This document shows, piece by piece, positions 19,910-33,444 of a stretch of 38,318 nt of DNA. The position numbers and the translations under genes were made by a program. Source of the DNA: Actinomycetota bacterium (GTDB lineage Bacteria > Actinomycetota > Humimicrobiia > Humimicrobiales > Humimicrobiaceae); the NCBI GenBank assembly GCA_003563375.1, contig PWSB01000237.1, forward strand, positions 1-38,318, written 5' to 3'. The notes under the pieces were generated by a model. It saw only the letters and a list, made by a program, of their open reading frames with translations. It did no database searches and was not told the origin of the DNA. Positions within the stretch are counted from its first letter, which is position 1, and the number at the start of each line of letters is the position of its first letter.

Positions 19910-20778
19910 TATTTTCCTTCAGCTGCTTTTTTTAATAGGAGGGATGCCTTATAAGAAGAACGGACAAATGCCCCGCTTATCACATTTTTTATTCCCGCCA
20001 TTTCTGCTAACTCTCTCAATTCTTCATATTCTTCGTTTGAATAATATTTTGTTACATTAATATTATTTCTGGTAGGGCTAAGATATTGGCCTATAGTCAC
20101 CATATCACAGTCAACCTCGTGGAGATCTTTTAGGAGTAAGCCAACCTCGTCCATGGTCTCCCCAAGGCCTACCATAAAACCCGATTTGGTATAAAGTCCT
20201 TTTTTGATTTTTTTAGCTTCTTTCAATATTTCGAGGGAAGCCCTGTAGTCTGCTCCCGGCCTTATTTTGCTATAATTCCTCTCTATAGTCTCAATATTAT
20301 GGTTTAAAACAGAGATAGGTTGAGAGACTATCGTCCTTAAGCTTTCTTTGTTTCCTCCAAAATCTGGTATCAGGCATTCGATCAGGCAGCCTGGTATCCT
20401 TTTTTTTATCTCTTTTACGGTTAGAGAAAAATGTTGTGCGCCACCATCTGCTATATCATCCCTTGTGACTGAAGTAAGGACCACATATCTTAAACCCATT
20501 TTGCTTGCTGTAATACCAATATTTACAGGCTCATTTTCGTCCAAAGGTAAGGTTTTTTTGGAATCGATACTGCAAAAGGCACAATTTCTTGAACACCTAT
20601 CCCCCATAAGGAGAAAAGTGGCGCTCCTTTTGCTAAAACACTCAAAGATATTAGGGCAATTTGCGCTCTGGCAAACAGTATGCAGGTTTGATTCCTCTAT
20701 CAGGCTTTTTACTTCCTTGATAACATTATTGTCCAGGCTTAATCTTTTTTTAAGCCAATCAGGTCTGTGGTCCGACAA
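19909..20778 (-). CDS. lipA: Lipoyl synthase (radical SAM)
   Basis: It has the auxiliary cluster CQSANCPNIFEC and the radical-SAM CSRNCAFC motif. Confidence 0.9.
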   Translation of the reverse strand: MSDHRPDWLKKRLSLDNNVIKEVKSLIEESNLHTVCQSANCPNIFECFSKRSATFLLMGDRCSRNCAFCSIDSKKTLPLDENEPVNIGITASKMGLRYVVLTSVTRDDIADGGAQHFSLTVKEIKKRIPGCLIECLIPDFGGNKESLRTIVSQPISVLNHNIETIERNYSKIRPGADYRASLEILKEAKKIKKGLYTKSGFMVGLGETMDEVGLLLKDLHEVDCDMVTIGQYLSPTRNNINVTKYYSNEEYEELRELAEMAGIKNVISGAFVRSSYKASLLLKKAAEGK

Positions 20779-21637
20779 TTTTACCGATAATCCTATCCAG
20801 GTCCTTTATGGTGCCAAAACCGACCTCTATCCTGCCTTTTTTCTTATTTATCTTTATTTTTACTGGTGCATCCAGGTAGGAAGAAAGCCTGTTTGAAAGT
20901 TCTGGAAGTTTTGAAGGCTGGATAACCCTATTATCATTATCCTGGGTACCCTTATTTTTTTGTGCATCTACAAGCTTTTCCACATCTCTGACGCTTAGGC
21001 TCTTTTTGGTGATGGTCTCCGCGAGCCTCAGCTGGTCTTTTTTGTCTTCTAGTGCAATAAGGCACCTGGCATGGCCAGCGCTCATTTTTTGCTCATCCAC
21101 TAGCTTTTGGACTTCTACGGGGAGAGACAGAAGCCTTATAAAATTAGTTATGGTTGCCCTGCTTTTTCCTACCTTCTGTGAAAGCTGGTCATGGGTGATG
21201 TCAAACTCATCTATAAGCTGCTTGAAAGTAAAAGCCAATTCTATGGGGCTTAAATCATCGCGGTGAATATTTTCAATCAAGGCCATCTCAACCGATGCAG
21301 TATCGTCTACATCTTTTGCGATCATGCATGGAATATTATCCATCCCTGCCAGCTTGGAGGCCCTATATCTTCTCTCCCCTGCAATGATCTCATATTTTTC
21401 TTCATAGCCATCAAGGCTTCTGACCAATATAGGCTGCATCACCCCGAATTCTTTTATGGAATCAGAAAGTTCAGCCAAAGAATCATCCTTAAAACTTTGT
21501 CTTGGCTGGTTTTTATTAGGGACTATATTAGATAAAGGAATTTCTATTACCCTGAACCTATCAGTGTTTTGTTTTTGTTTAGAGCTTGGAATCAGTGCCT
21601 CAAGTCCCCTGCCTAATCCTCTTCTTGCCATTTTCAA
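20759..21637 (-). CDS. parB: Chromosome partitioning protein ParB/Spo0J
   Basis: It has GLGRGLEALI, the GERRYRA arginine patch and a central HTH. Confidence 0.9.
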   Translation of the reverse strand: MKMARRGLGRGLEALIPSSKQKQNTDRFRVIEIPLSNIVPNKNQPRQSFKDDSLAELSDSIKEFGVMQPILVRSLDGYEEKYEIIAGERRYRASKLAGMDNIPCMIAKDVDDTASVEMALIENIHRDDLSPIELAFTFKQLIDEFDITHDQLSQKVGKSRATITNFIRLLSLPVEVQKLVDEQKMSAGHARCLIALEDKKDQLRLAETITKKSLSVRDVEKLVDAQKNKGTQDNDNRVIQPSKLPELSNRLSSYLDAPVKIKINKKKGRIEVGFGTIKDLDRIIGKIVGPQT

Positions 21638-22469
21638 TCACTTCCTTTGTCAAATTTTTATATGCCTGTGCTCCCTTGCATCCAGAGTCATAGATCATAA
21701 TTGGCTGCCCATAGCTTGGTGCTTCGCTTAATCTAACATTTCTTGGAATAATTGTTTCGAAGACTTTTTCCTTAAAATATTTCTTGACTTCATCCAACAC
21801 CTGTTCGGCAAGCTTTATCCTGGCATCGTACATGGTCATCACTGCGCCCGTGATCTTCAGATCTTCATTTAGGTTGCCTTTTACCAGGTTAATAGTATTT
21901 ATCAGCTGTCCCAGACCCTCCAGGGCATAATATTCACACTGGATAGGTATTAAAACCTCCTTTGAGGCAGTCAAAGCATTTATAGTCAAAAGGCCTAAAG
22001 CAGGAGGACAGTCTATAATTACGAAGTTGAACCTATCTTTTACTTTATCTAAACCTTTTTTTAGCTTGTATTCCCTTTTCATTCCAGAGACCATCTCCAC
22101 CTCAGCACCTGCTAGCTCTATGGAGGAAGGAAGTAGTTTTAGATTCTCATATTCGGTATCTAGGATTAAATTAGAAGGATCTTCATCTTCAATAAGTATT
22201 TCATAAACGGACCCTGTTATTTTTTCTGTTTTTACTCCTATGCCACTGGTAGAATTGCTTTGAGGGTCCAGATCTATCAACAGGGTTTTATAGCCTTCAG
22301 CTGCAAGATACGCCGCTAAATTGACCGCAGTGGTGCTTTTGCCAACTCCTCCTTTTTGGTTAGCAATGGCTATGATTCTGCATTCTTGTTCATTGCCCGG
22401 ATCATTTCTGATAATTTTTTTCCTCCCAAACAGCTTTTTAAGCAGTTGCATAAACATACAATTATTCAA
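21600..22469 (-). CDS. parA: Chromosome partitioning ATPase ParA/Soj
   Basis: It has the deviant Walker A NQKGGVGKSTT. The track start at 22469 is a TTG overlapping the rsmG stop. In-frame ATGs at 22457 and 22451 are alternatives. Confidence 0.9.
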   Translation of the reverse strand: MNNCMFMQLLKKLFGRKKIIRNDPGNEQECRIIAIANQKGGVGKSTTAVNLAAYLAAEGYKTLLIDLDPQSNSTSGIGVKTEKITGSVYEILIEDEDPSNLILDTEYENLKLLPSSIELAGAEVEMVSGMKREYKLKKGLDKVKDRFNFVIIDCPPALGLLTINALTASKEVLIPIQCEYYALEGLGQLINTINLVKGNLNEDLKITGAVMTMYDARIKLAEQVLDEVKKYFKEKVFETIIPRNVRLSEAPSYGQPIMIYDSGCKGAQAYKNLTKEVIENGKKRIRQGT

Positions 22470-23197
22470 ATGGGTTTGCCGGGTTCCCTTTTGATCTTAG
22501 CAAATTTTCGAGGGTATCCTGGTGAGGTAAGAAATTTTTTCCTTATCTCTAGAAAAACCCTGAACTCGGTAAAATCCGGTATGTTTGCTTCATGCAAACC
22601 TACAATTTCTCCTCCCAGCAGTTTAATAAAATCTTTATTCTTATCTATTTCCTCAAAAACCCTAAGGCTTTTATAAAATATTATTTTACCATTTATTTTA
22701 GAAAATGGAATTACTAATTCCAGCAATATGCTAAAATCAGTGACGGCTCTTGCCAATACAATGTCATAGGCCTCCCTGTGTTTTTTATCTTTTGCCAGCT
22801 GTTCTGCCCGGCCTCTAAGGGCTACAACATTTTCCAAGCAAAGGGTGTCTATTGCTCTATTTAAGAAATCTATTTTTTTTGATGATTTATCCATAAGGCA
22901 GACCTTCTTATCCGGAAGGAACAAGGAAAGGAGAAGGCCTGGAAGTCCTCCCCCGCTGCCTATGTCTATGAGCCGGTAACTGCCTAAAAAGAACCTTTCT
23001 TTGTGGGCCAATATCGATAATGAATCCAAAAAATGCCTTAAAAATATTTGATCCTTTTCCTTGGTCCCTATTAAATTGGTTCTTTTATTGGCTTCAAACA
23101 ATATGTCCAAGTATAACAATGTTTTTAAAACCGCCTTGGGTGGCGGTTTTATCTCCATTTCATTTAAAAAATTATTGATCTTTTTTCTGTAATCCAA
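22466..23197 (-). CDS. rsmG: 16S rRNA m7G527 methyltransferase RsmG (GidB)
   Basis: It has the NLIGT...HFLDSL and IDIGSGGGLPGL SAM motifs, and sits in the conserved position after mnmG. Confidence 0.9.
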   Translation of the reverse strand: MDYRKKINNFLNEMEIKPPPKAVLKTLLYLDILFEANKRTNLIGTKEKDQIFLRHFLDSLSILAHKERFFLGSYRLIDIGSGGGLPGLLLSLFLPDKKVCLMDKSSKKIDFLNRAIDTLCLENVVALRGRAEQLAKDKKHREAYDIVLARAVTDFSILLELVIPFSKINGKIIFYKSLRVFEEIDKNKDFIKLLGGEIVGLHEANIPDFTEFRVFLEIRKKFLTSPGYPRKFAKIKREPGKPI

Positions 23198-23200
23198 TGC

Positions 23201-25051
23201 TTACTTCCTTCTTAGGTTAAGCAATAAAATGGATATATCCGAAGGAGATACACCTGCTATCCTGGAAGCCTGCCCAAGGGTGTTTGGCCTTTTTCTCGAC
23301 AATTTTTCTTGAGCCCCATAGGTCAACCCCTTAAATCTAAAATAATCTATATTGGAGGGAATGGCAAATTTTTCAAGCTTTTTAGTTTTTTTTATTTCCT
23401 CAAACTGGCGGTTAATATACCCTTCATATTTTATGATTATCTCTGCTTGTTTCCATACCCCGTCGCCATAACCATTGCTGGCATGATCCAGCCAGTATTT
23501 GATATCCCCTATGTTAACCTGTGGCCTTTTAAAGAGGTCGTATAGCCTGATGGGTTCTTTTAGCTTAAGGTTTGGTCTGTATCTATTTGCTTTTTGGGGT
23601 TTAATCGTTATATTTTTTAGAAGTTTTATCAGGGAATCTATAGCCTGCTGCTTCTTTAATGTCTTCTGATGGGCTTCTTTTTCAAGAAAGCCTGCTTCAA
23701 ACCCCAGGGTTGCTAGCCTGAGGTCTGCATTATCAGATCTCAAAAACAACCTATACTCTGCCCTTGAGGTATACATCCTGTAGGGCTCACTGAGGTCTTT
23801 TGTGATAAGATCATCTATTAAGACTCCTATATAGCTTGTATCCCTTGTCAATATCAGGGGTTTTTTGCCCAAGATTTTCAAGGATGCATTAGCTCCGGCT
23901 ACAAAACCCTGCACAGCGGCTTCTTCATATCCCGAGGTTCCATTGATCTGGCCAGCAAAATAAAGATTCTCTATCAGCTTGGATTCCAGGGTATAGTTTA
24001 ACTGGCAGGGTATTAGGTAGTCATATTCTACTGCATAGCCCGGCCTTATGATGCTTGCTTTCTCCAGTCCTTCTACTGTATTTACTATTTTTTCCTGCAG
24101 GTAGAAAGGCATGCTGGTGGTAAGTCCCTGTAGGTACATCTCGTTTGTGTGAACCCCTTCAGGTTCAATAAATACAGGATGTTTATGTTTTTGGGGAAAA
24201 TTTAGGACTTTTCTGTCAATTGAGGGGCAATGCCTTGGCCCATGGGTATTAATTATGCCTGATCTTATAGGAGAATACTTTATATTTTGGGCTATTAAAT
24301 CATGTGTTTTACTATTGGTATATGTTAGAAAGCTTGGAATATTTGCTCTTTCTCCCCTTTTGGGACAAGCCCAAAAAGAAAAACTACCAGCTTCCTCATC
24401 ACCTGAGCTGATAATAGTCTTTGAAAAATCTATGCTTCTTTTATCCACTCTGGGCGGTGTGGCGGTTTGAAACCTGTCCATCTCAAAACCAAGGCTGGTG
24501 AGGCTTTTGGTCAGGTTCATGGCAGGGTTCTCTCCCATTCTTCCTGCATAATAGTCCTTATCCCCTATTATTATCCTTCCCCTCAAAAAGGTCCCGCTAG
24601 TGATTATCACAGCTTTAGCCAAAAATTGCATTCCGTCTTCGGTTAGTACTCCTTTTACCTTTATACCGTCGACTAAAAGCTTAGCAACCGTTCCCTGTTT
24701 TAATAAAATGTTATCTGTAGTTTCTAAAAGATGCTTCATCAAGGTCTCATATTCTTTTTTATCTATCTGGGTTCTCAAAGCCTGGACTGCCGGCCCTTTT
24801 TTTTGATTTAATAATTTGAACTGTATACCTGCTAGGTCAGCAATTTTGCCCATCTGCCCCCCCATTGCATCCAATTCTTTTATAAGCTGGCTTTTGCCCA
24901 TCCCTCCTATTGCGGGATTGCAGGGCATAAGGGCTACTTTGTCTAGATTTATGGTAAGAAGAAGAGTATTTAATTTTAATCGGGCACAAGCAAAGGCTGC
25001 TTCACATCCTGCATGGCCTGCTCCTATAACTATTACATCATACATGGTCAT
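23201..25051 (-). CDS. mnmG: tRNA uridine-5-carboxymethylaminomethyl synthesis enzyme MnmG (GidA), copy A (616 aa)
   Basis: It has YDVIVIGAGHAGCEAA, MPCNPAIGG, HGPRHCPSID and GQINGTSGYEEAAVQG. Its start overlaps the copy B stop (ATGA). Confidence 0.9.
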   Translation of the reverse strand: MTMYDVIVIGAGHAGCEAAFACARLKLNTLLLTINLDKVALMPCNPAIGGMGKSQLIKELDAMGGQMGKIADLAGIQFKLLNQKKGPAVQALRTQIDKKEYETLMKHLLETTDNILLKQGTVAKLLVDGIKVKGVLTEDGMQFLAKAVIITSGTFLRGRIIIGDKDYYAGRMGENPAMNLTKSLTSLGFEMDRFQTATPPRVDKRSIDFSKTIISSGDEEAGSFSFWACPKRGERANIPSFLTYTNSKTHDLIAQNIKYSPIRSGIINTHGPRHCPSIDRKVLNFPQKHKHPVFIEPEGVHTNEMYLQGLTTSMPFYLQEKIVNTVEGLEKASIIRPGYAVEYDYLIPCQLNYTLESKLIENLYFAGQINGTSGYEEAAVQGFVAGANASLKILGKKPLILTRDTSYIGVLIDDLITKDLSEPYRMYTSRAEYRLFLRSDNADLRLATLGFEAGFLEKEAHQKTLKKQQAIDSLIKLLKNITIKPQKANRYRPNLKLKEPIRLYDLFKRPQVNIGDIKYWLDHASNGYGDGVWKQAEIIIKYEGYINRQFEEIKKTKKLEKFAIPSNIDYFRFKGLTYGAQEKLSRKRPNTLGQASRIAGVSPSDISILLLNLRRK

Positions 25052-26826
25052 TTTTTCCTATGTTTCACGTGAAACATCTTCAAATAACACAAAAGAGATA
25101 AAAAATCAGAAGGGCTCACACCCTGTAACCGGCGGGCCTGCCTCAAAGAATCCGGTTTACTTTCTTCAAGGGCGAGAATAGCCTCGTTAGAAATATTTTT
25201 TATATTTTTATAATTGATTTTTTGTGGTATTTCAAAATCTAAGCTGTTCTTTATCTTCTCGATTTCTTTTACCTGTCTTTCTATATATTCTCTATATTTT
25301 AAGTTAATGTATACGCTATCTATGTCTTTGGTGCATAATTTATATTTACCCTTCAAAATATCCTTGTATTTATTGTAAAAAGACTCTTTGGTTGGTTGTC
25401 CGAAATTATTGTTTTCTAATATTTCCTTCCCAGCAAGATGGATTTTTTCATATTTTTCCTCTATTATCTGCGCTTTTTCATTAAAGCCTATTATTTTTAA
25501 GAATTTTAGCATCCTATAATCGGCGTTATCATGCCTGTGGTAGAGCCTAAATTCATTTCTAGAAGTGAGCATTCGATATGGTTCAGTTATTTTTCTGCTA
25601 ACTAGATCATCGATCAGTACCCCTATATAACCATCTTCCCTGTTGATCTGGATCCCATTTTTATCCTGGGACATCCTCCCTGCATTGATGCCTGCAATTA
25701 TACCCTGGGCAGCGGCTTCTTCATATCCTGTGGTTCCATTTATCTGCCCAGCAAAAAACAGGCCTTTGAGTTTTTTACATTCAAGTCTGTTGTTTATCTG
25801 GAATGGCAGGATATAATCATATTCTACCCCATATCCCGGCCTGGTAATAACCGCCTTTTTTAGTCCTTTTATTTTTTTTAACATGCCCGCCTGGATTTCT
25901 TCACTGAGAGTTGTCATCAACCCATGTATATACATTTCAGATGTCCTCCTGCCTTCAGGCTGGATAAACAAGAGATGGCTTTTTTTATCAGGATATCTGG
26001 TTACCTTTTCTTCGATGGATGGGCAGTATTTAGGGCCTTCTGACTCTAACTTGGCAAAAAAAGAGCCATTCAGGTTTTTTTTGATATAATCTATACCATC
26101 TTCTCCAATATGAGTCATATGATTGTTGAATTGGCTCCTGCCGTCATATTTATCCTCAAAAGAAAACATTTCAGGATGATCGTCATAATATTGGAGTTTT
26201 AATCCTCTAAAATCTATTGCCTTGGAATCCACCCTGGGAGGTGTGTTTGTATTTAATCGTCCAAACCTGATGCCCAATTTCTCAAGATTCCTGGATAATT
26301 TATTAGAAGGAACCTCCCCTTGCCTTCCTGCCTCAATTTTATTTGCCCCCCAAAAAACCTTGCCCCTCAAAAAGGTGCCGGTGCATAAGATTACACATTT
26401 TGCAAAATATTTGTAGCAGTCACTGGTTTCTAAAAAATATAACCCCTTATCCTTCCCTATATTTACCACCATTGCCTGCCTTAGGGTTAAATTCTCTTGA
26501 TTTTCAACAATTTTCTTCATAGCCAGAAAATACTCTCTCTTGTCTATTCCCGCCCTAAGCGTTCTCACCGCTGGACCTCTTGATGTGTTTAACATCCTCA
26601 TATGAAGGAAGGTCCTATCGGTATTTTTGGCCATCTCGCCGCCCAATGCATCGATCTCTCTAACCATCTGCCCTCTTCCCGGGCCTCCAATAGAACTATT
26701 GCAGGGCATGGCGGCAATAGAATCCATATTTATGGAAAGAAGCAGTGTATTTGCTTTTAGGCGGGCAGCGGCTAATGCTGCTTCACATCCAGCATGTCCT
26801 GCCCCTATCACTATTACCTCATACAT
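25048..26826 (-). CDS. mnmG: MnmG (GidA) paralog, copy B (592 aa)
   Basis: It has YEVIVIGAGHAGCEAA, MPCNSSIGG, EGPKYCPSIE and GQINGTTGYEEAAAQG. It is full length, not the short TrmFO type. Confidence 0.85.
   Translation of the reverse strand: MYEVIVIGAGHAGCEAALAAARLKANTLLLSINMDSIAAMPCNSSIGGPGRGQMVREIDALGGEMAKNTDRTFLHMRMLNTSRGPAVRTLRAGIDKREYFLAMKKIVENQENLTLRQAMVVNIGKDKGLYFLETSDCYKYFAKCVILCTGTFLRGKVFWGANKIEAGRQGEVPSNKLSRNLEKLGIRFGRLNTNTPPRVDSKAIDFRGLKLQYYDDHPEMFSFEDKYDGRSQFNNHMTHIGEDGIDYIKKNLNGSFFAKLESEGPKYCPSIEEKVTRYPDKKSHLLFIQPEGRRTSEMYIHGLMTTLSEEIQAGMLKKIKGLKKAVITRPGYGVEYDYILPFQINNRLECKKLKGLFFAGQINGTTGYEEAAAQGIIAGINAGRMSQDKNGIQINREDGYIGVLIDDLVSRKITEPYRMLTSRNEFRLYHRHDNADYRMLKFLKIIGFNEKAQIIEEKYEKIHLAGKEILENNNFGQPTKESFYNKYKDILKGKYKLCTKDIDSVYINLKYREYIERQVKEIEKIKNSLDFEIPQKINYKNIKNISNEAILALEESKPDSLRQARRLQGVSPSDFLSLLCYLKMFHVKHRKK
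25061..25076. promoter_or_regulatory. parS: parS (ParB-binding centromere-like site), perfect palindrome
   Basis: TGTTTCACGTGAAACA fits the canonical TGTTNCACGTGAAACA parS consensus exactly. It extends to the 18-bp palindrome ATGTTTCACGTGAAACAT at 25060-25077. It lies inside the last codons of mnmG copy B (KMFHVKHRKK*), 8 nt upstream of the copy A ATG. Confidence 0.8.
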
Positions 26827-26840
26827 TTACAATCACCAGA

Positions 26841-26856
26841 TGTTTCACGTGAAACA
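26841..26856. promoter_or_regulatory. parS: parS (ParB-binding centromere-like site), perfect palindrome
   Basis: The identical 18-mer ATGTTTCACGTGAAACAT at 26840-26857 lies in the 66-nt mnmE/mnmG-B spacer, 13 nt upstream of the copy B ATG. Confidence 0.8.
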
Positions 26857-26892
26857 TTTCGCCAATTTTTCTTATAATATTATTTTTTGTCA

Positions 26893-28317
26893 TTATTTTC
26901 CTATACAAAACCTGGAAAAAATATTTTCGAGTACCTCTTCCCTTGCTGTGTCCCCGGTTATTTCACCTAAAAGTCCTGAAGCAATTTTAAGGTCTGCTGA
27001 CGCGAACTCTTCTGACAGTTTATTTGCCATAGCTGTTTCGGCATCTTGCAACACCTCCCTTACATCCTGCATTATTTTTTTATGCCTCTGGTTTATAATT
27101 ATTTTATCTTCCAGGTTTAATTCTCCGTTTCCCAGTACTTTCTTTTTTATTGAATGTTCCAAATCTTCTATTCCGGTCTTTTTCAATGCAGACACCCTTA
27201 TCGTTTGCTCGGGCCCAAAAGGCAGTCCCAGCTTTTTAATATCCTCTTTTTGACCTAGATCCACCTTATTTATAACCAAGATAGAGTTTTTGTTTTCTAT
27301 TTTCCCAATTATATTAAAATCTCGGCCATCAAGTTTCCTGCTTCCATCTACCACCATTAATACAATATCTGCTTCATCTATGTGGCCTAGGCTTCTTTCC
27401 ACGCCAATCTTCTCAACGCTGGAGGCGGTTTTTCTAATTCCCGCAGTATCAATGATTATCAGAGGTATCCCGCCTACATATATAATTTCTTCAACCGCAT
27501 CCCTTGTAGTTCCCGGAATAGAGGTCACTATGGCTTTATCTTTTTTAACCAAAAGGTTTAGAAGGCTGGATTTTCCGACATTAGGTTTGCCGACTATGGC
27601 AACCTTGACCCCATTTTTTATTATTTCACCCTTTGATTCATCTTTTATAAGCTGCTCAACCCTTTCTAAGAGCACTCCGGTCTTTTTTCTCAACTCCTCA
27701 TAAGGTGTAGTCTCTAGATCTTCTTCTATAAAATCTATACTGGCTTCCAGCTGGACCAATATCTCTACTATCCCATCCCTTATGCTGGCTATCTCTTTTT
27801 TTATATTCCCTTTTATATTATTTGCGGCTATTTTAAGACTCTCTTCTGTTTTTGAGTTTATTAAGTCGATTACCGCTTCAGCTTGTGATAGGTCTATTCT
27901 TCCATTTAAAAAAGCGCGCTTTGTAAATTCTCCTGGTTCAGCCAGCCTGGCCCCCCTATCCATGCATAGGCTTAATACCTTGGTGGTAGGGGTTATCCCT
28001 CCGTGGGTGTTTATCTCTACTACATCCTCCCTGGTATATGAATAGGGATTTCTCATCAACCCCACGATAACCTCATCCACGACCTCTCCCCTTCCATCTA
28101 TGATCTCGCCATATAAAAGAGAATATGATTTTAATTCATTTATTGTTTTTCCATTTTTTGAGCGGAAAATGCTGTCTGCCACCCTTATGGCTTCTTTTCC
28201 GCTTATTTTTACTATACCTATAGCCGCTTCACCTGGTTTGGTGCCTATTGCAGCGATAGTGTCTTCTTCTATATAAAACATATTATTAATCTTTTTTTTA
28301 TTCATTTTGCCATCCAA
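26893..28317 (-). CDS. mnmE: tRNA modification GTPase MnmE (TrmE)
   Basis: It has DTIAAIGT, the G-domain motifs GKPNVGKSSLLN, DTAGIR and NKVD, and a C-terminal CIGK. The true start may be an internal Met (28305 or 28281). Confidence 0.9.
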   Translation of the reverse strand: MDGKMNKKKINNMFYIEEDTIAAIGTKPGEAAIGIVKISGKEAIRVADSIFRSKNGKTINELKSYSLLYGEIIDGRGEVVDEVIVGLMRNPYSYTREDVVEINTHGGITPTTKVLSLCMDRGARLAEPGEFTKRAFLNGRIDLSQAEAVIDLINSKTEESLKIAANNIKGNIKKEIASIRDGIVEILVQLEASIDFIEEDLETTPYEELRKKTGVLLERVEQLIKDESKGEIIKNGVKVAIVGKPNVGKSSLLNLLVKKDKAIVTSIPGTTRDAVEEIIYVGGIPLIIIDTAGIRKTASSVEKIGVERSLGHIDEADIVLMVVDGSRKLDGRDFNIIGKIENKNSILVINKVDLGQKEDIKKLGLPFGPEQTIRVSALKKTGIEDLEHSIKKKVLGNGELNLEDKIIINQRHKKIMQDVREVLQDAETAMANKLSEEFASADLKIASGLLGEITGDTAREEVLENIFSRFCIGK

Positions 28318-28487: not shown

Positions 28488-29066
28488 TTAATTGTTTTCC
28501 TGGACCGGATATATGATTATCCTTCTGAATGGCTCTTCATTTTTGCTTTTAGTCCGAATTTTGGCAAAACCAGAAAGAGTATCGTGGATGATCTTTCTGT
28601 CAAATGCAGACATCGGCTGCATTTTTATTTTTCTGCCTTCTTTAATTGCTTTTTTTGCTAGCTTTATGGCTGTCTTCTTTATCTTTTCAGCCTTTTTTTG
28701 CCTGTAGTCCTTGATATCTATTAAAATATTTTTATTTACCAACTTTTTCTTCGCTGATATAAGGTTTATTAGATATTCAATAGCTTCAATATTTTTTCCA
28801 TTTTTTCCAATAGCCATGCTTAAATCATCCCCATATACAGCAAATTTTAAATTGTTTTCATCCACCTCTACCCTTAAATCTTCACCGATGCAAATGGCTT
28901 CCAGGGTGTTTTTTATCAAATCGACTATTCTATCCAGGCCAGAGCATTTCTGCTCGACTTGCTCCCCTTTTATCTTTTTGTTTTCAATCAGGGAACCGCT
29001 CTTTTGTTCCTCTTCTAAGGATTTTACAAATGAATCCAAGGCATCATCCATTTTTTTATCTTTCAT
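28488..29066 (-). CDS. jag: Jag/KhpB-type RNA-binding protein (KH + R3H)
   Basis: It has a KH-like GKNGKNIEAIEYL block and an R3H block (DRKIIHDTL). It sits in the conserved position between yidC and mnmE. Confidence 0.8.
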   Translation of the reverse strand: MKDKKMDDALDSFVKSLEEEQKSGSLIENKKIKGEQVEQKCSGLDRIVDLIKNTLEAICIGEDLRVEVDENNLKFAVYGDDLSMAIGKNGKNIEAIEYLINLISAKKKLVNKNILIDIKDYRQKKAEKIKKTAIKLAKKAIKEGRKIKMQPMSAFDRKIIHDTLSGFAKIRTKSKNEEPFRRIIIYPVQENN

Positions 29067-29089: not shown

Positions 29090-29881
29090 TTATTTCTTTC
29101 TTCTTTTTTTTCTTTTTTTTCCTGAGATAACTTTTTTTTCATCAGAAGTCAATTGTTTTTCTGTTTGCTTCTGTTCCGGTTCCTTTTTTTCTTCTGTCTC
29201 TTTTCCTTCTGTCCGCTTGACCCATTTATTTACAAGGCCTTGCTGCCCAATGGACCAAATATTGGTAGTAACCCAGTATATAAGTATCCCTGAAGGAAGA
29301 TTGATCGATATAAAACCAAATACTACAGGCATAGCATAAGATATTACAGATTGCTTTGGGTCTGTAGTAGTCATCTTTGTAGTCAAAAACATGGTAGCCA
29401 CCATCAATATCACCAGGATATAATATTGGTCCGGCTGGTTCAGGTTAAGCCATAAAAAATTATAATTCGGGTTAGGTACATTATTTAACATAAAGGGTCC
29501 CAGCACATTTCTCACAATATCAGAAGGTTCCCTCAATGCCTGGAACAAGGCAAAAAATATGGGCATCTGCAAAAGAAGGGGGAGGCACCCCGCCAGGGGA
29601 TTGACATTGTTCTGCCTGTAAAACTCCATAGTCTTTTCCTGGACCTTTTGTTTATCGTCCTTGTATTTTTTCTGGATTTCCTTGAGTTTGGGCTGCATCT
29701 TCTGCATCTTGGCCATTGATTTTGTCTGGCTTATAGTAAGGGGGGTAAGGACCACCCTTACGATCAGAGTCAATAGTATTATGACTAAACCATAGCTGGG
29801 TACTACATTCTGATACAAAAATATGACTATTTGTTCAATAACAGTCTGAACAGGTCTTAACAATTCCAATATTTGAGCCAA
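29090..29881 (-). CDS. yidC: Membrane protein insertase YidC (short form)
   Basis: It has a KMQKMQPKLKEIQKKYKDD amphipathic hairpin, NPLAGCLPLLLQMPIFFALF and a Lys/Arg-rich tail. The TTG start lies 9 nt after a GGGAGG SD. Confidence 0.9.
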   Translation of the reverse strand: MAQILELLRPVQTVIEQIVIFLYQNVVPSYGLVIILLTLIVRVVLTPLTISQTKSMAKMQKMQPKLKEIQKKYKDDKQKVQEKTMEFYRQNNVNPLAGCLPLLLQMPIFFALFQALREPSDIVRNVLGPFMLNNVPNPNYNFLWLNLNQPDQYYILVILMVATMFLTTKMTTTDPKQSVISYAMPVVFGFISINLPSGILIYWVTTNIWSIGQQGLVNKWVKRTEGKETEEKKEPEQKQTEKQLTSDEKKVISGKKRKKRRKK

Positions 29882-30132: not shown

Positions 30133-30456
30133 TTAATCAAAAGCAGAGAGTAGCGAGTTTTCAATCACTTGTTTTAGCTGGTGATAGCCAGCACCTGCGG
30201 ATGCTTTCCTGACCACTATTAGCAGGTCCAAGCCTTTATCGTTGATTTCGATCTTCCTTAAAACTTCCTTGATAATCCTTTTAATCCTATTGCGGGTCAC
30301 AGCATTTCCCACATTCTTTCCTACGCTTATACCCACCCTCATCATCCCAAGGTCGTTTTCCTGGATGTAAAACTTTGCAAACTTGCTGCTGGCGGTCCTG
30401 CCTTCTGAATAAATCCTATTGAACTCGCTCTTTCTCTTCAGGGTCTCGAGCTGCAT
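30133..30456 (-). CDS. rnpA: RNase P protein component
   Basis: It has the RNR-type block [14 protein letters not shown]. The ATG at 30456 shares one base with the rpmH TGA (TGATG). The track start at 30459 is a TTG one codon upstream. Confidence 0.9.
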
Positions 30457-30590
30457 CAAGCACTTAATTTCTTTCTGCCTTTTTTTCTTCTATTTGATAT
30501 AATCCTTCTTCCGGCCTTTGTTTTCATCCTGGCCCTAAAGCCATGATTCTTTTTTCTCTTCCTTTCATTGGGCTGGTACGTTCTTTTCAT
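30456..30590 (-). CDS. rpmH: 50S ribosomal protein L34
   Basis: My translation is [44 protein letters not shown] (44 aa). It is too short for the ORF track. Confidence 0.95.
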
Positions 30591-30791: not shown

Positions 30792-30943
30792 TTTTCAACA
30801 GCTGTGGAAAATATTGTTGATAAATTAGAAAAGTGCCACTGTGTAGGCATTCAAATACCTTTTAATTATTAACTTTTTAAAGAATAGATATCACGTTTTC
30901 CGCATATTATCGTTTAGCGTATTGATTTTTTATTTGTTGATAA
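30792..30943. other. oriC: oriC part 1: DnaA-box cluster upstream of the dnaA operon
   Basis: Near-consensus boxes (consensus TTATCCACA): TTTTCAACA at 30792-30800; TGTGGAAAA at 30803-30811 (reverse complement TTTTCCACA); TGTTGATAA at 30815-30823 and 30935-30943 (reverse complement TTATCAACA); TTTTCCGCA at 30896-30904. Confidence 0.7.
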
Positions 30944-31036: not shown

Positions 31037-31825
31037 ATGTTGGAAAACCAGGCCGGTCCAAATAAAAAATCGAATGTAAAAATCCCGGTAAGGATCGCCG
31101 TCTATGATAACCTGAAGAGCATACCCCGGGTAGTAGAGATGGACTTTGATAATGTATCAGCCTTTATAGATGAATCCTCTCAAAGGACCTATACCCTTTC
31201 TCACCAGGCCGGAGGCCAGATCCCATATACCATAATAAGGGAGATAATTGAAAATCTTATACATGCAGAATTTTGTGAGATTATCATCACCGTCCTGGAC
31301 GGGGGAAACCATATCATCATCTCAGACCAGGGGCCCGGTATAGAAAATAAAGACAAGGCTTTCCTGCCCGGGTTTACCTCAGCCACCAGAAAGATGAAGG
31401 AATATATAAGGGGGGTTGGGTCAGGCCTGCCTATCGTAAAGGAGACCATAACTTTTTCAGGAGGGTCGATAGATATAACTGATAATATAAAGAGGGGGAC
31501 AGTGGTCTCTTTGAAAATAGATTCACCAAAGGAAGGCCAAAAAAAAGAACCTGTACCTTCAGATGAGACAAAAAAGAAACCGGAAACAGATTTCGGTGAT
31601 CTGAAACTAACCATTAGGCAGAAAAAATTGCTCTCCCTTATTTTGGAAATGGAGGAAGCAGGGCCTTCAAAGATTTCAAATGAACTAAACTTCAGCCTTT
31701 CTACTTCTTATAGGGAACTGATATTTTTAGAGAATAAAAAGCTGGTTGCCTCAAGCAGCTCGGGGAAAAGAAGATTAACCGAAAAAGGCATTAAATATCT
31801 TGAATATTATTCAAATAATTTTTAA
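31037..31825 (+). CDS. GHKL (histidine-kinase-like) ATPase domain protein with C-terminal winged-helix domain
   Basis: It has an N-box-like EIIENLIHAE, G1 DQGPGI and G2 GVGSGLP. After a Lys/Glu-rich linker comes LTIRQKKLLSLILEMEEAGPSKISNELNFSLSTSYRELIFLENKKLV, which looks like a MarR/wHTH. It ends 12 nt before the dnaA ATG. Confidence 0.65.
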   Translation: MLENQAGPNKKSNVKIPVRIAVYDNLKSIPRVVEMDFDNVSAFIDESSQRTYTLSHQAGGQIPYTIIREIIENLIHAEFCEIIITVLDGGNHIIISDQGPGIENKDKAFLPGFTSATRKMKEYIRGVGSGLPIVKETITFSGGSIDITDNIKRGTVVSLKIDSPKEGQKKEPVPSDETKKKPETDFGDLKLTIRQKKLLSLILEMEEAGPSKISNELNFSLSTSYRELIFLENKKLVASSSSGKRRLTEKGIKYLEYYSNNF

Positions 31826-31837
31826 TATGATTCTATC

Positions 31838-33193
31838 ATGAATAACTTGGCTGATTCCTGGAAATCAATATTAGAAGATATTAAAGATAGCATAAATACT
31901 CCCACTTATAAGACGTGGTTTGAGCATGTCTATCCGATATCATATGAGGAAAACTGCCTTACCCTCTCTGTAAACAGCCAGTTTGCCAAAGAATGGCTGG
32001 AGACAAGGTACAATAAAATAATAAATGATTCCATAAGGAAAAATATAGATAAAAATTGTAAGCTTAAAATCATAGTAAATCCAAAAAAAGGCCATCATTT
32101 AAATGAAAGCGACCTTATTCCTGAAATAAATACAGAACCTCGAGAACAGGTTGAGAAGACGGCAAGCTCGATGTTTAACACCAAGTACAGTTTTGAGACC
32201 TTTGTAATAGGAAGCGGAAACAGGTTTTCACATGCGGCAGCACTTGCAGTCAGTGAAAACCCAGGAAAAGCCTATAATCCTCTATTTATATACGGCGGGG
32301 TAGGGCTTGGCAAAACCCATCTGCTGCATGCTATAGGGCAATACCTTACCCAGATATATCCAGACCTGACAGTAAAATATGTCTCTGCAGAAAAGTTTTT
32401 AAATGATTTTATCAATGCTCTAAGAGACAAGACAGTCCTGACTTTCAAGGATTACTATAGAAACAACGATGTTCTTTTAGTGGATGACATACAGTTTTTG
32501 GAGGAAAAGGAGGCAAGCCAGGAAGAATTTTTCCATACCTTTAATGCCTTGCATGATACCAACAGGCAAATAGTGCTTTCAAGTGACAGGAAACCCAAAG
32601 ACATCTCTTCTTTGGAGGAGAGGCTGAGATCCCGTTTTGAGTGGGGCTTGGTGACTGATATACAGCCTCCTGATTTTGAGACGAGGTTTGCAATCCTTAA
32701 GAAATACTCTGAAAGAGAGAAAATAATTGTATCGGATGATATCCTGTCCCTTATTGCCAGCAGAATAACTTCCAATATAAGAGAGCTTGAGGGGGCTCTT
32801 ACCAGGGTAGTGGCTTTTTCGTCTCTTACAAGGTCAAAACCTGATGTAGAGATTGCCAAAAATGTGTTAAGGGATATTCTTCCAGACAACAGCGAGCAAA
32901 AGATAAATATACCAAGAATCATAAAAGAAGTTTCCAAATATTTTTCTATACCCATAAACACCCTTACCGGCAGCAAGAGAAATAAGTTCGTCTCCCATGC
33001 AAGGCAGCTTGCCATGTACCTTTCCAGAGAGCTTACCAGCAATTCGCTGCCAAAGATCGGGACAGCTTTTGGGAACCGGGACCATGCCACGGTCATATAT
33101 GCTATATCAAAGATATCAGAGCTTATAAACCAGGATCAGGAAGTCTATAAGCAGATCCAGCAGATAACCAATAATATAAAAAGAAACCCTTAA
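31838..33193 (+). CDS. dnaA: Chromosomal replication initiator protein DnaA
   Basis: It has NPLFIYGGVGLGKTHLLHAIG (Walker A), LLVDDIQFL and a domain IV block (ARQLAMYLSRELT...IG..FG.RDHATV). Confidence 0.97.
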   Translation: MNNLADSWKSILEDIKDSINTPTYKTWFEHVYPISYEENCLTLSVNSQFAKEWLETRYNKIINDSIRKNIDKNCKLKIIVNPKKGHHLNESDLIPEINTEPREQVEKTASSMFNTKYSFETFVIGSGNRFSHAAALAVSENPGKAYNPLFIYGGVGLGKTHLLHAIGQYLTQIYPDLTVKYVSAEKFLNDFINALRDKTVLTFKDYYRNNDVLLVDDIQFLEEKEASQEEFFHTFNALHDTNRQIVLSSDRKPKDISSLEERLRSRFEWGLVTDIQPPDFETRFAILKKYSEREKIIVSDDILSLIASRITSNIRELEGALTRVVAFSSLTRSKPDVEIAKNVLRDILPDNSEQKINIPRIIKEVSKYFSIPINTLTGSKRNKFVSHARQLAMYLSRELTSNSLPKIGTAFGNRDHATVIYAISKISELINQDQEVYKQIQQITNNIKRNP

Positions 33194-33234: not shown

Positions 33235-33444
33235 TTGTCAACATTTCTATATTTTACGGTAAATAAAAAAGGATTGTTTTTTAGTAGTGTATAAATGCCT
33301 TTTTTATCAACACAGTTTTTGGCCTTTATCAACACACTGTTCTTGGCCACATCGAGGGTTTATAATGCTTCTTAACAGTTTAAACACCTTCTATATATTT
33401 ATTACTAAAGTTATTTAAATAAATAAATATATATAATAGAATGG
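33235..33444. other. oriC: oriC part 2: DnaA boxes plus AT-rich putative unwinding element between dnaA and dnaN
   Basis: Boxes are TTGTCAACA (33235-33243) and TTATCAACA at 33304-33312 and 33326-33334. The last two share an 11-mer TTATCAACACA, 22 bp apart. A nearly pure A/T run spans 33391-33444. Confidence 0.65.

What the first reader, a model, noticed from the sequence alone, without database searches (positions are those of the whole stretch)
25060..26857. Identical perfect parS palindromes placed just upstream of each mnmG copy, one embedded in coding sequence
ATGTTTCACGTGAAACAT occurs twice, at 25060-25077 and 26840-26857. Its 16-bp core matches the canonical ParB site TGTTNCACGTGAAACA. 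I found no other CACGTG-containing copy in the window. Each site lies 8-13 nt upstream of an mnmG start codon, next to the Shine-Dalgarno. The first site encodes the last residues of copy B (KMFHVKHRKK*), an extension beyond the point where copy A ends (…LLNLRRK*). The flanking genes have diverged strongly but the 18-mers are identical. This suggests a parS-mnmG unit was duplicated and the sites were then held by selection. ParB loading and spreading would start directly on the ribosome-binding regions of both mnmG genes. That raises the question of whether ParB occupancy affects their expression.
Basis: partly seen in the sequence, partly recalled or inferred. Interest (0 to 1): 0.6.

Follow-up and report, generated by a model that had tools for sequence, protein, structure and literature searches.

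The report
Two conserved parS centromere sites flanking mnmG
The two identical palindromes are almost certainly the genuine, and probably the only, chromosome-partition (ParB-binding parS) sites of this small actinobacterial genome; they sit next to the replication origin and the parAB genes as in many bacteria, so the finding is real but mostly ordinary.

Summary
ATGTTTCACGTGAAACAT lies at 25060-25077 and 26840-26857, and its core matches the ParB site consensus TGTTNCACGTGAAACA perfectly. These are the only sites with two mismatches or fewer in the 1.5-Mb assembly (85% complete).

The sites lie in the origin-proximal string rnpA-yidC-jag-mnmE-[parS]-mnmG'B'-[parS]-mnmG'A'-rsmG-parA-parB. They are 3.2-5.2 kb from the single, canonical parB gene and 4-6 kb from the nearer DnaA-box cluster (30803-30943).

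The same arrangement, with about two sites, occurs in all 24 genomes examined from the same family (17 genera, deep-branching Actinomycetota). The 16-mer is essentially invariant while its flanks are scrambled. The site inside the mnmG-B tail is read in two different frames in different genomes. Selection therefore acts on the DNA.

The "duplicated parS-mnmG unit" idea is neither proven nor excluded. The paralogue is ancient. Another family with a full-length copy B has no parS in front of it. However, copy B running straight into parS is the geometry a tandem-duplication junction would give.

Closeness to the ribosome-binding sites is mostly a by-product of very short intergenic gaps (66 and 0 nt).

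One lead is new. A conserved promoter-like module abuts the upstream parS, so ParB might regulate the operon that encodes it. This is untested.

This is a new member of a known kind, of modest interest.

The parts
25060..25077 (.). parS-1: perfect 16-bp ParB site (core 25061-25076) inside the last codons of mnmG-B, 8 nt (or 14 nt) upstream of the mnmG-A start
   Evidence: The syntenic site is conserved in 24/24 family genomes. It is read as NVSRET* in most genera and as MFHVKH in this genome.
26840..26857 (.). parS-2: perfect 16-bp ParB site (core 26841-26856) in the 66-nt mnmE|mnmG-B spacer, 13 nt upstream of the mnmG-B start
   Evidence: The syntenic site is present in family f1 and sister family f2 only.
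26858..26893 (-). Conserved promoter-like module between the mnmE stop and parS-2. It has a -35-like ATGACA (26893-26888), a 17-nt spacer, a -10-like AAAAAT (26870-26865), then TGGCGAA abutting parS.
   Evidence: One search lists it at 9/12, which is not above chance on its own. It aligns without gaps in 20/22 family genomes and ends 6-7 nt before parS in 18 of them. Its function is inferred, not shown.
25048..26826 (-). mnmG copy B: divergent upstream paralogue of 592 aa. It keeps the FAD motif and both catalytic Cys motifs.
   Evidence: TIGR00136 657.7 bits in two stretches; Pfam GIDA + SAM_GIDA_C, no GIDA_C_1st hit; 42% identity to A; motifs.
23201..25051 (-). mnmG copy A: orthodox MnmG of 616 aa, with an alternative start at 25045
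   Evidence: TIGR00136 787.8 bits, full length. It falls in the clade of all Actinomycetota A copies, support 99/99.
26893..28317 (-). mnmE
   Evidence: TIGR00450 400 bits
22466..23197 (-). rsmG (gidB)
   Evidence: TIGR00138 151 bits
21600..22469 (-). parA (Walker-type partition ATPase)
20759..21637 (-). parB: ParB_N (GERRYRA CTP-binding box) + HTH_ParB + ParB_C. It is the only ParB_N gene found in the assembly.
30803..30943 (.). DnaA-box cluster upstream of the dnaA operon (putative oriC part 1). A second cluster lies at 33304-33334 between dnaA and dnaN.
31838..33193 (+). dnaA
   Evidence: TIGR00362 558 bits

Best explanation
The two palindromes are the chromosomal centromere of this organism. 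They are a two-site parS set for the single canonical ParB encoded about 3-5 kb downstream in the same gene string.

Inferred mechanism, taken from the established ParABS model:
- ParB dimers recognise each 16-bp parS through the HTH domain.
- They bind CTP at the N-terminal GERRxRA domain, close into clamps and slide outwards.
- This builds a partition complex of roughly 10-20 kb. It would cover mnmE, both mnmG genes, rsmG, parAB and probably the DnaA-box clusters 4-8 kb away.
- ParA-ATP on the nucleoid then pulls the duplicated origin regions apart.
- ParB probably also loads the lineage's unusually short SMC.

The positions right next to the mnmG start codons are best explained by lack of room. 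In this compact operon the only non-coding DNA is the 66-nt mnmE|B gap and the B|A junction, so any tolerated site ends up beside an SD or in a gene tail.

Shown here: sequence identity to the consensus, uniqueness in the genome, origin and parAB proximity, the presence of ParA and ParB, and deep DNA-level conservation. Inferred: binding, spreading, segregation and SMC loading.
For: - Perfect match to TGTTNCACGTGAAACA at both sites, with 0.04 hits expected by chance.
- Only these two sites with two mismatches or fewer in the 1.5-Mb assembly. The reversed-pattern control gives 0 hits, and three-mismatch hits equal the control.
- The context is rnpA-yidC-jag-mnmE-mnmG-mnmG-rsmG-parA-parB, with dnaA-dnaN divergent and DnaA-box clusters at 30.8 and 33.3 kb.
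- ParB has ParB_N, HTH_ParB and ParB_C domains, the GERRYRA box and the N-terminal LGRGLEAL ParA-interaction motif. Its best solved relatives are the ParB/Spo0J proteins of M. xanthus, T. thermophilus, H. pylori (a ParB-parS complex), C. crescentus and B. subtilis, E 1e-47 to 1e-52. It is the only ParB_N gene found.
- 24/24 genomes of the same family (17 genera, many 96-99% complete) carry about two perfect sites at the same two syntenic positions.
- Information content is 1.97 bits per column in the core against 0.3-0.8 in the flanks.
- The only variation in relatives is at the degenerate positions 5 and 12, and it is not compensatory.
- The B tail crosses the site in two different frames (NVSRET* versus MFHVKH), so the DNA rather than the peptide is conserved.
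- Literature: the consensus, origin-proximal clustering, and known chromosomes with 2-3 sites, namely Hyphomonas neptunium 2/2, Burkholderia cenocepacia chrI 2/2 and M. smegmatis 3/3 (PMC7022226).
Against: - There is no experimental evidence.
- The assembly is 85% complete, so further sites could exist. Against this, near-complete relatives also have only two.
- The SMC of this lineage is truncated and apparently lacks a hinge. The SMC-loading step of the canonical model may therefore not apply unchanged.
Confidence: 0.88

Rival explanations
1. The sites are a centromere and also an operator. parS-2 sits at about +1 of a conserved promoter that drives mnmG-B, mnmG-A, rsmG, parA and parB. ParB occupancy would then feed back on transcription of its own operon, much as in type Ib plasmid partition cassettes or KorB. 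This adds to the best explanation rather than replacing it.
For: - A promoter-like module, TGaCAAAAA / 17 nt / (A/G)AnAtT / TGGCGAA, aligns without gaps in 20/22 family genomes and ends 6-7 nt before parS in 18. Its information content is about twice the flank background.
- From mnmG-B to beyond lipA the genes overlap or are 3 nt or less apart, so the 66-nt gap is the last intergenic space before parAB.
- In families f5, f35 and f20 a strong TTGCnT-17-TGnTATAGT promoter lies 20-33 nt upstream of the parS in front of mnmG-A.
- gidAB-parAB co-transcription from a promoter upstream of gidA is documented in P. aeruginosa and V. cholerae (PMC13438810, PMC4010829).
- ParB-family clamps can repress promoters (KorB, PMC11790492).
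Against: - The window's own match is only 9/12, and such matches occur at chance frequency in this AT-rich region (31 found, 32.5 expected).
- In two genera the module lies 16-21 nt further from parS, so tight overlap is not obligatory.
- Promoter and parS may share the spacer simply because it is the only non-coding DNA.
- Chromosomal ParB spreading silences few genes, and parAB is not autoregulated in V. cholerae or B. subtilis (PMC4010829).
- No transcript data are available.
Confidence: 0.2
2. The two sites are identical and positioned alike because a segment [parS ... mnmG minus its last codons] was tandemly duplicated. Possibly gene conversion later homogenised the copies. On this view history explains the layout, not independent selection on each position.
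For: - B's homology to A ends at B583/A614 of 616 and continues directly into parS in all full-length B copies of the family. This is the junction expected for such a duplication.
- Both sites lie 8-14 nt from a start codon.
- All positional B copies fall on one side of a branch, which is compatible with one ancient duplication.
- In G003 both copies share the unusual TTG-RAT-TTT-GA start and a similar spacer.
Against: - The duplication predates at least families f1, f2 and f27, and remnants occur in f5, f8, f20, f33 and f35. Over that time unselected 16-mers would have decayed as the flanks did.
- f27, with a full-length B, has no parS upstream of B. The jag|mnmE position is used instead in f5, f8, f20, f27 and f35.
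- Family f3 lost mnmE and mnmG yet keeps two parS 480 bp apart.
- Nothing beyond the 18-mer is shared upstream of the two sites.
- The alignment test for gene conversion was uninformative.
Confidence: 0.35
3. The palindrome acts at the RNA level, as a hairpin in the mRNA next to the SD that tunes mnmG translation or mRNA stability. Alternatively it is the operator of an unrelated CACGTG-binding regulator, not a ParB site.
For: The 18-mer can form a 7-bp hairpin of -5 kcal/mol, z = -3.3 against shuffles. It lies 8-13 nt from start codons.
Against: - The hairpin is weak and leaves both SDs unpaired in the folded context. The z-scores of the contexts are -0.7 and -2.0.
- Changes in relatives (TGTTCCACGTGAAACA, TGTTTCACGTGGAACA) break the pairing without compensation. 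They fall exactly at the degenerate position of the ParB consensus.
- The same 16-mer is the ParB site across phyla (PMC7022226).
- In families f33 and f24 the same site sits deep inside mnmG-A, far from any SD.
- In f3 the sites lie in non-coding DNA without mnmG.
Confidence: 0.04

Closest known systems
Chromosomal parS / Spo0J(ParB) centromeres of Bacillus subtilis and most bacteria (consensus TGTTNCACGTGAAACA)
   Same: The 16-bp palindrome is identical. The sites are origin-proximal, close to parAB, and one lies inside a coding sequence, as does the B. subtilis site inside spo0J (from my own knowledge). The cognate ParB has CTPase, HTH and dimerisation domains.
   Different: There are only two sites, against 10 in B. 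subtilis. Both lie within 1.8 kb, and they bracket an extra mnmG paralogue.
Two- or three-site chromosomes: Hyphomonas neptunium (2/2, TGTTTCACGTGAAACA), Burkholderia cenocepacia chrI (2/2), Mycobacterium smegmatis (3/3) (Table 1 of PMC7022226)
   Same: A minimal set of perfect sites next to oriC and parAB. M. smegmatis belongs to the same phylum and has the related string jag-gidB-parA-parB.
   Different: Classical Actinomycetes lack mnmE and mnmG. Here the deep-branching lineage keeps them, plus a paralogue, and the sites lie among them.
gidA-gidB-parA-parB operons of Pseudomonas aeruginosa and Vibrio cholerae (PMC13438810, PMC4010829)
   Same: parAB lie downstream of mnmG(gidA)-rsmG(gidB) and can be transcribed from a promoter upstream of gidA.
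   Different: In those species the parS sites lie 10-65 kb away, not at the gidA promoter. P. aeruginosa control is by DnaA, and V. cholerae parAB1 is not autorepressed.
Plasmid partition cassettes with the centromere at the promoter (type Ib) and KorB/OB of RK2 (PMC11790492)
   Same: A ParB-family binding site is placed at or just downstream of the promoter of the operon that encodes the partition proteins.
   Different: Repression there is demonstrated and often needs a partner (KorA, TrbA). Here a promoter is only predicted, no partner is known, and ParB is of the chromosomal type.

Membership tests
Chromosomal parS (ParB-binding centromere site) | 16-bp palindrome matching TGTTNCACGTGAAACA | tested here: met
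   0 mismatches at both sites
Chromosomal parS (ParB-binding centromere site) | Cognate chromosomal-type ParB (ParB_N CTPase box, HTH_ParB, C-terminal dimerisation domain) and ParA encoded in the genome | tested here: met
   single ParB_N gene
Chromosomal parS (ParB-binding centromere site) | Few copies, clustered in the origin-proximal region rather than spread over the genome | tested here: met
   Two sites in 1.5 Mb, none elsewhere with two mismatches or fewer. They lie 4-6 kb from the upstream DnaA-box cluster and 5-7 kb from dnaA. The assembly is only 85% complete, but near-complete relatives also have two.
Chromosomal parS (ParB-binding centromere site) | Conservation of the DNA sequence in relatives beyond that of the surrounding sequence | tested here: met
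   24/24 family genomes; 1.97 versus 0.3-0.8 bits per column; independent of reading frame
Chromosomal parS (ParB-binding centromere site) | Specific ParB binding, spreading and a role in segregation | not testable with these tools
   Needs EMSA, BLI, ChIP-seq or plasmid-stabilisation assays.
Autoregulated partition operon (centromere/operator overlapping the par promoter, as in type Ib plasmids or KorB) | Promoter of the par operon overlaps or abuts the ParB site | tested here: inconclusive
   A conserved -35/-10-like module ends 6-7 nt before parS-2 in 18/22 genomes. The match is weak (9/12) and no transcription start data exist.
Autoregulated partition operon (centromere/operator overlapping the par promoter, as in type Ib plasmids or KorB) | ParB-dependent repression of that promoter | not testable with these tools
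   Requires a reporter assay with and without ParB and parS.
MnmG (GidA) tRNA-modification enzyme, for both flanking genes | Scores above the TIGR00136 equivalog cut-off; FAD motif and two catalytic Cys motifs present | tested here: met
   A 787.8 bits and B 657.7 bits against a cut-off of 524.85. B has GAGHAG, MPCNSSIGG and GPKYCPS. B lacks a GIDA_C_1st hit.

The most novel reading that the evidence does not exclude
In this family, and in a looser form in several other deep-branching Actinomycetota families, a parS site is kept at +1 to +35 of the promoter of the mnmG-rsmG-parA-parB operon. ParB loading at its own centromere would then throttle transcription of parAB. That would be a chromosomal ParB autoregulatory loop, which has not been found in the model species examined so far.
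Probability: 0.18. Interest if true: 0.55.

Novelty: new member of a known kind. Interest (0 to 1): 0.3.

Why it matters
The finding fixes the centromere, and with the DnaA boxes the origin region, of an uncultured, deep-branching actinobacterial lineage. It shows a strict two-site parS set kept unchanged across 17 genera.

It also gives a clean natural demonstration that a parS site embedded in a gene is selected as DNA, because the same 16-mer is read in two frames in different genomes.

The only part with wider reach is the recurrent placement of parS at the predicted promoter of the operon that contains parAB. How chromosomal ParA and ParB levels are set is still described as unresolved (PMC13371061). 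This layout would make ParB autoregulation directly testable with a simple reporter.

Tried and rejected
- **RNA-hairpin or translational element.** The fold is weak (-5 kcal/mol), the SDs are not sequestered, and variation in relatives is non-compensatory. Rejected.
- **Chance occurrence.** Rejected by shuffles, the genome-wide count and the reversed-pattern control.
- **Recent tandem duplication.** Rejected. A and B are 42% identical, B is not nested among A copies, and B or its remnants occur in at least 8 families. An ancient unit duplication could be neither confirmed nor excluded.
- **Gene conversion between the two 5' regions.** Short end-free alignments were uninformative.
- **Promoter scan of the window alone.** Promoter-like and terminator-like hits are at chance level. 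Only the cross-genus alignment gives the module any weight.
- **Livny et al. 2007 (PMC2168934).** Not held. The review PMC7022226 was used instead.
- **B remnant in the mnmE-mnmG gap of G033.** I looked for one and saw no clear ORF.
Full report
**Observation**

The 18-mer ATGTTTCACGTGAAACAT occurs at 25060-25077 and 26840-26857. Its 16-bp core matches the ParB-site consensus TGTTNCACGTGAAACA without mismatch. No other site with two mismatches or fewer exists in the window, against 0.04 expected from shuffles. CACGTG itself occurs nowhere else in the window.

The genes are all on the minus strand. In transcription order they are:
- rnpA (30133-30459)
- yidC (29090-29881)
- jag (28488-29066)
- mnmE (26893-28317)
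- parS-2
- mnmG copy B (25048-26826, 592 aa)
- parS-1
- mnmG copy A (23201-25051, 616 aa)
- rsmG (22466-23197)
- parA (21600-22469)
- parB (20759-21637)
- lipA

dnaA (31838-33193) and dnaN are divergent on the plus strand.

- The gaps to the start codons are 13 nt (B) and 8 nt (A). The gap for A is 14 nt if A starts at the ATG at 25045, which aligns with the starts in relatives.
- SD-like GGTGAT and AGGA follow the sites.
- parS-1 encodes the B tail K-MFHVKH-RKK*.
- The B stop overlaps the A start (ATGA).
- A and B are 42% identical.

**Is it a real parS?**

In the whole assembly (1.50 Mb, 240 contigs, 84.8% complete) these two are the only sites with two mismatches or fewer. Three-mismatch hits are as frequent as those of the reversed control pattern.

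The cognate protein is present and orthodox:
- It has ParB_N, HTH_ParB and ParB_C domains.
- It carries an N-terminal LGRGLEAL motif and the GERRYRA CTP-binding box.
- Its best solved relatives are the ParB/Spo0J proteins of Myxococcus xanthus, Thermus thermophilus, Helicobacter pylori, Caulobacter crescentus and Bacillus subtilis (E 1e-47 to 1e-52).
- It is the only ParB_N-containing gene found in the assembly.

A Walker-type ParA precedes it. The sites are therefore 4-6 kb from the upstream DnaA-box cluster (6.4-8.3 kb from the dnaA-dnaN one) and 3.2-5.2 kb from parB.

The consensus, the origin-proximal clustering and the existence of chromosomes with only 2-3 sites are documented in the review PMC7022226. 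Its examples are Hyphomonas neptunium 2/2, Burkholderia cenocepacia chrI 2/2 and Mycobacterium smegmatis 3/3.

**Comparative evidence**

Source names of the closest proteins place the genome among uncultured Actinomycetota.

A pattern scan of 40 relatives found the motif (one mismatch or fewer) in all 24 genomes of the same family, which span 17 genera. Nearly all have exactly two sites. Where both sites are assembled on one contig (22 of the 24 genomes) they lie 1.15-4.5 kb apart. I fetched these regions and mapped the window's proteins on them.

Every family member has mnmE-[parS]-mnmG B-[parS]-mnmG A-rsmG-parA-parB-lipA. The sister family f2 has the same layout, with three sites before A.

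Anchored on the sites, the 16-mer carries 1.97 bits per column. The flanks carry 0.3-0.8 bits.

The only variants in relatives are TGTTCCACGTGAAACA and TGTTTCACGTGGAACA. These are changes at the degenerate position of the consensus, and they are not compensated on the other arm. That pattern fits a protein-binding site and not an RNA stem.

Most tellingly, the B open reading frame runs through parS-1 in different frames:
- Most genera read ...K-NVSRET*, with the stop codon formed by the last T of the 18-mer.
- This genome and one other genus read ...K-MFHVKH....

The DNA is conserved while the encoded peptide is not. Selection on the sites as DNA is therefore very well supported.

**The mnmG paralogue and the "duplicated unit" idea**

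Copy B is an old, fast-evolving paralogue:
- In half of the family it is full length. It keeps the FAD motif and the first catalytic Cys motif, and the second Cys motif was also detected in this genus and several other genera, but not in all full-length copies.
- In the other half it is cut to 380-470 aa and has lost both Cys motifs.
- Full-length or remnant upstream copies also occur in families f27, f35, f20, f33 and f8 of the phylum.

In a maximum-likelihood tree all A copies of the phylum form one clade (99/99). All positional B copies (f1, f2, f27) fall on the other side of a weakly supported branch (75/41). The Bacilli outgroup joins at the same node. This is compatible with one ancient duplication. 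B is certainly not a recent copy of its neighbour.

The site directly in front of A is the widely shared one. It is found in f1, f2, f5, f20, f35, one f27 genome, and as a two-mismatch site in f40.

The site in front of B is restricted to f1 and f2. Elsewhere the second site lies between jag and mnmE. Other layouts also occur:
- f27, with a full-length B, has no parS before B.
- f33 and f24 carry a perfect parS inside mnmG-A at codons about 122-128, read as VSRET.
- f3 has lost mnmE, mnmG and rsmG but keeps two sites 480 bp apart in non-coding DNA before parA.

Having about two origin-proximal sites therefore appears to be the selected state, independent of mnmG.

On the other hand, B's similarity to A ends 2-3 codons before A's stop and then runs straight into parS. 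That is what a tandem duplication of [parS ... mnmG minus its end] would produce. Duplication followed by differential loss of one of three sites is about as parsimonious as relocation. I leave this open, at roughly 35% for the unit duplication.

**Why next to the ribosome-binding sites?**

From mnmG-B through lipA and two further ORFs the genes overlap or are separated by 3 nt or less. The only non-coding DNA is the 66-nt mnmE|B gap and, further up, the 170-nt jag|mnmE gap. A 16-bp site that must lie here can sit only in those gaps or in a dispensable gene end, and this is where all lineages put it. Closeness to an SD is thus largely a by-product.

ParB binds DNA, so any influence would be on transcription rather than on ribosome binding. 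As RNA the 18-mer forms only a -5 kcal/mol hairpin, and both SDs stay unpaired.

Published work shows that chromosomal ParB spreading silences few genes. It also shows that parAB is not autoregulated in V. cholerae or B. subtilis (PMC4010829).

**A lead worth testing**

The 35 nt between the mnmE stop and parS-2 are conserved beyond the site. The motif TGaCAAAAA, a 17-nt spacer, (A/G)AnAtT and TGGCGAA align without gaps in 20 of 22 family genomes. The module ends 6-7 nt before the 18-mer in 18 of them. In two genera the intact module lies 16-21 nt further away.

Read as a sigma-70-type promoter (ATGACA-17-AAAAAT in the window, 9/12), it would start transcription at the edge of parS. The window match alone is no better than chance. 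The weight comes only from the cross-genus register.

In f5, f35 and f20 a much better promoter (TTGCnT-17-TGnTATAGT) lies 20-33 nt upstream of the parS in front of mnmG-A.

gidAB-parAB co-transcription from a promoter upstream of gidA is known in P. aeruginosa and V. cholerae (PMC13438810, PMC4010829). ParB-family clamps such as KorB can repress promoters (PMC11790492). How chromosomal ParA and ParB levels are set is described as unresolved (PMC13371061).

ParB autoregulation through parS-2 is therefore possible. I put it at about 0.2. The alternative is that promoter and centromere simply share the only free DNA.

**Verdict**

The parS interpretation and "held by selection" are strongly supported. 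The duplicated-unit history is undecided, and the expression effect is untested.

This is a new member of a well-known kind: an origin-proximal chromosomal parS set. It has tidy comparative features and one testable regulatory lead.

An earlier first-stage note (e1-3380777) had already flagged the tandem mnmG paralogues on this same stretch.

Noticed in passing
G000 contig C70:3883-6087 (L056:1384-3588), outside the window: The SMC gene, next to rnc, encodes only 734 aa. TIGR02168 matches only model positions 1-394 and 881-1180, and there is no Pfam hinge hit. All 15 family genomes searched have 668-816-aa frames, class relatives have 852-900 aa, and a more distant phylum member has 968 aa. 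This looks like a lineage-wide shortened, apparently hinge-less SMC and not an assembly artefact.
   Followed up: partly
L046:9259, L048:9477, L049:10278, L052:569, L053:409: In two other families of the phylum (f24, f33) a perfect TGTTTCACGTGAAACA lies deep inside the orthodox mnmG gene, at codons about 122-128. It is always read as VSRET, the same frame as the usual mnmG-B tail NVSRET.
   Followed up: partly
window 25048-26826 and relatives L010, L012, L015, L016, L019, L021, L023, L024, L036, L038: The upstream mnmG paralogue is decaying in about half of the family. It is truncated to 380-470 aa and has lost both catalytic Cys motifs while keeping an open frame. In the window's genus it is full length with both motifs. 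Remnants also occur in families f5/f8/f20/f33/f35.
   Followed up: partly
window 26858-26893 (minus strand): The mnmE|parS spacer is conserved and looks like a promoter with a GC-rich TGGCGAA stretch between the -10-like box and parS. It is far more conserved than other flanks across 17 genera.
   Followed up: partly
L007 (G003), both parS sites: In this same-genus relative both mnmG copies begin with the unusual TTG-RAT-TTT-GA and have similar 14-nt spacers after parS (AGGAGGAATATTAA and AGGAGGATTGCTAA). This may be a trace of gene conversion between the 5' ends of the paralogues.
   Followed up: partly
L028:8623-9738, L030, L031 (family f3): Relatives with 1.0-1.6-Mb genomes have lost mnmE, mnmG and rsmG. 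They keep a roughly 1.1-kb ORF-free stretch with two parS 480 bp apart between jag and parA.
   Followed up: no
window 31037-31825 (+): A gene encoding HATPase_c plus a winged helix lies directly upstream of dnaA.
   Followed up: no
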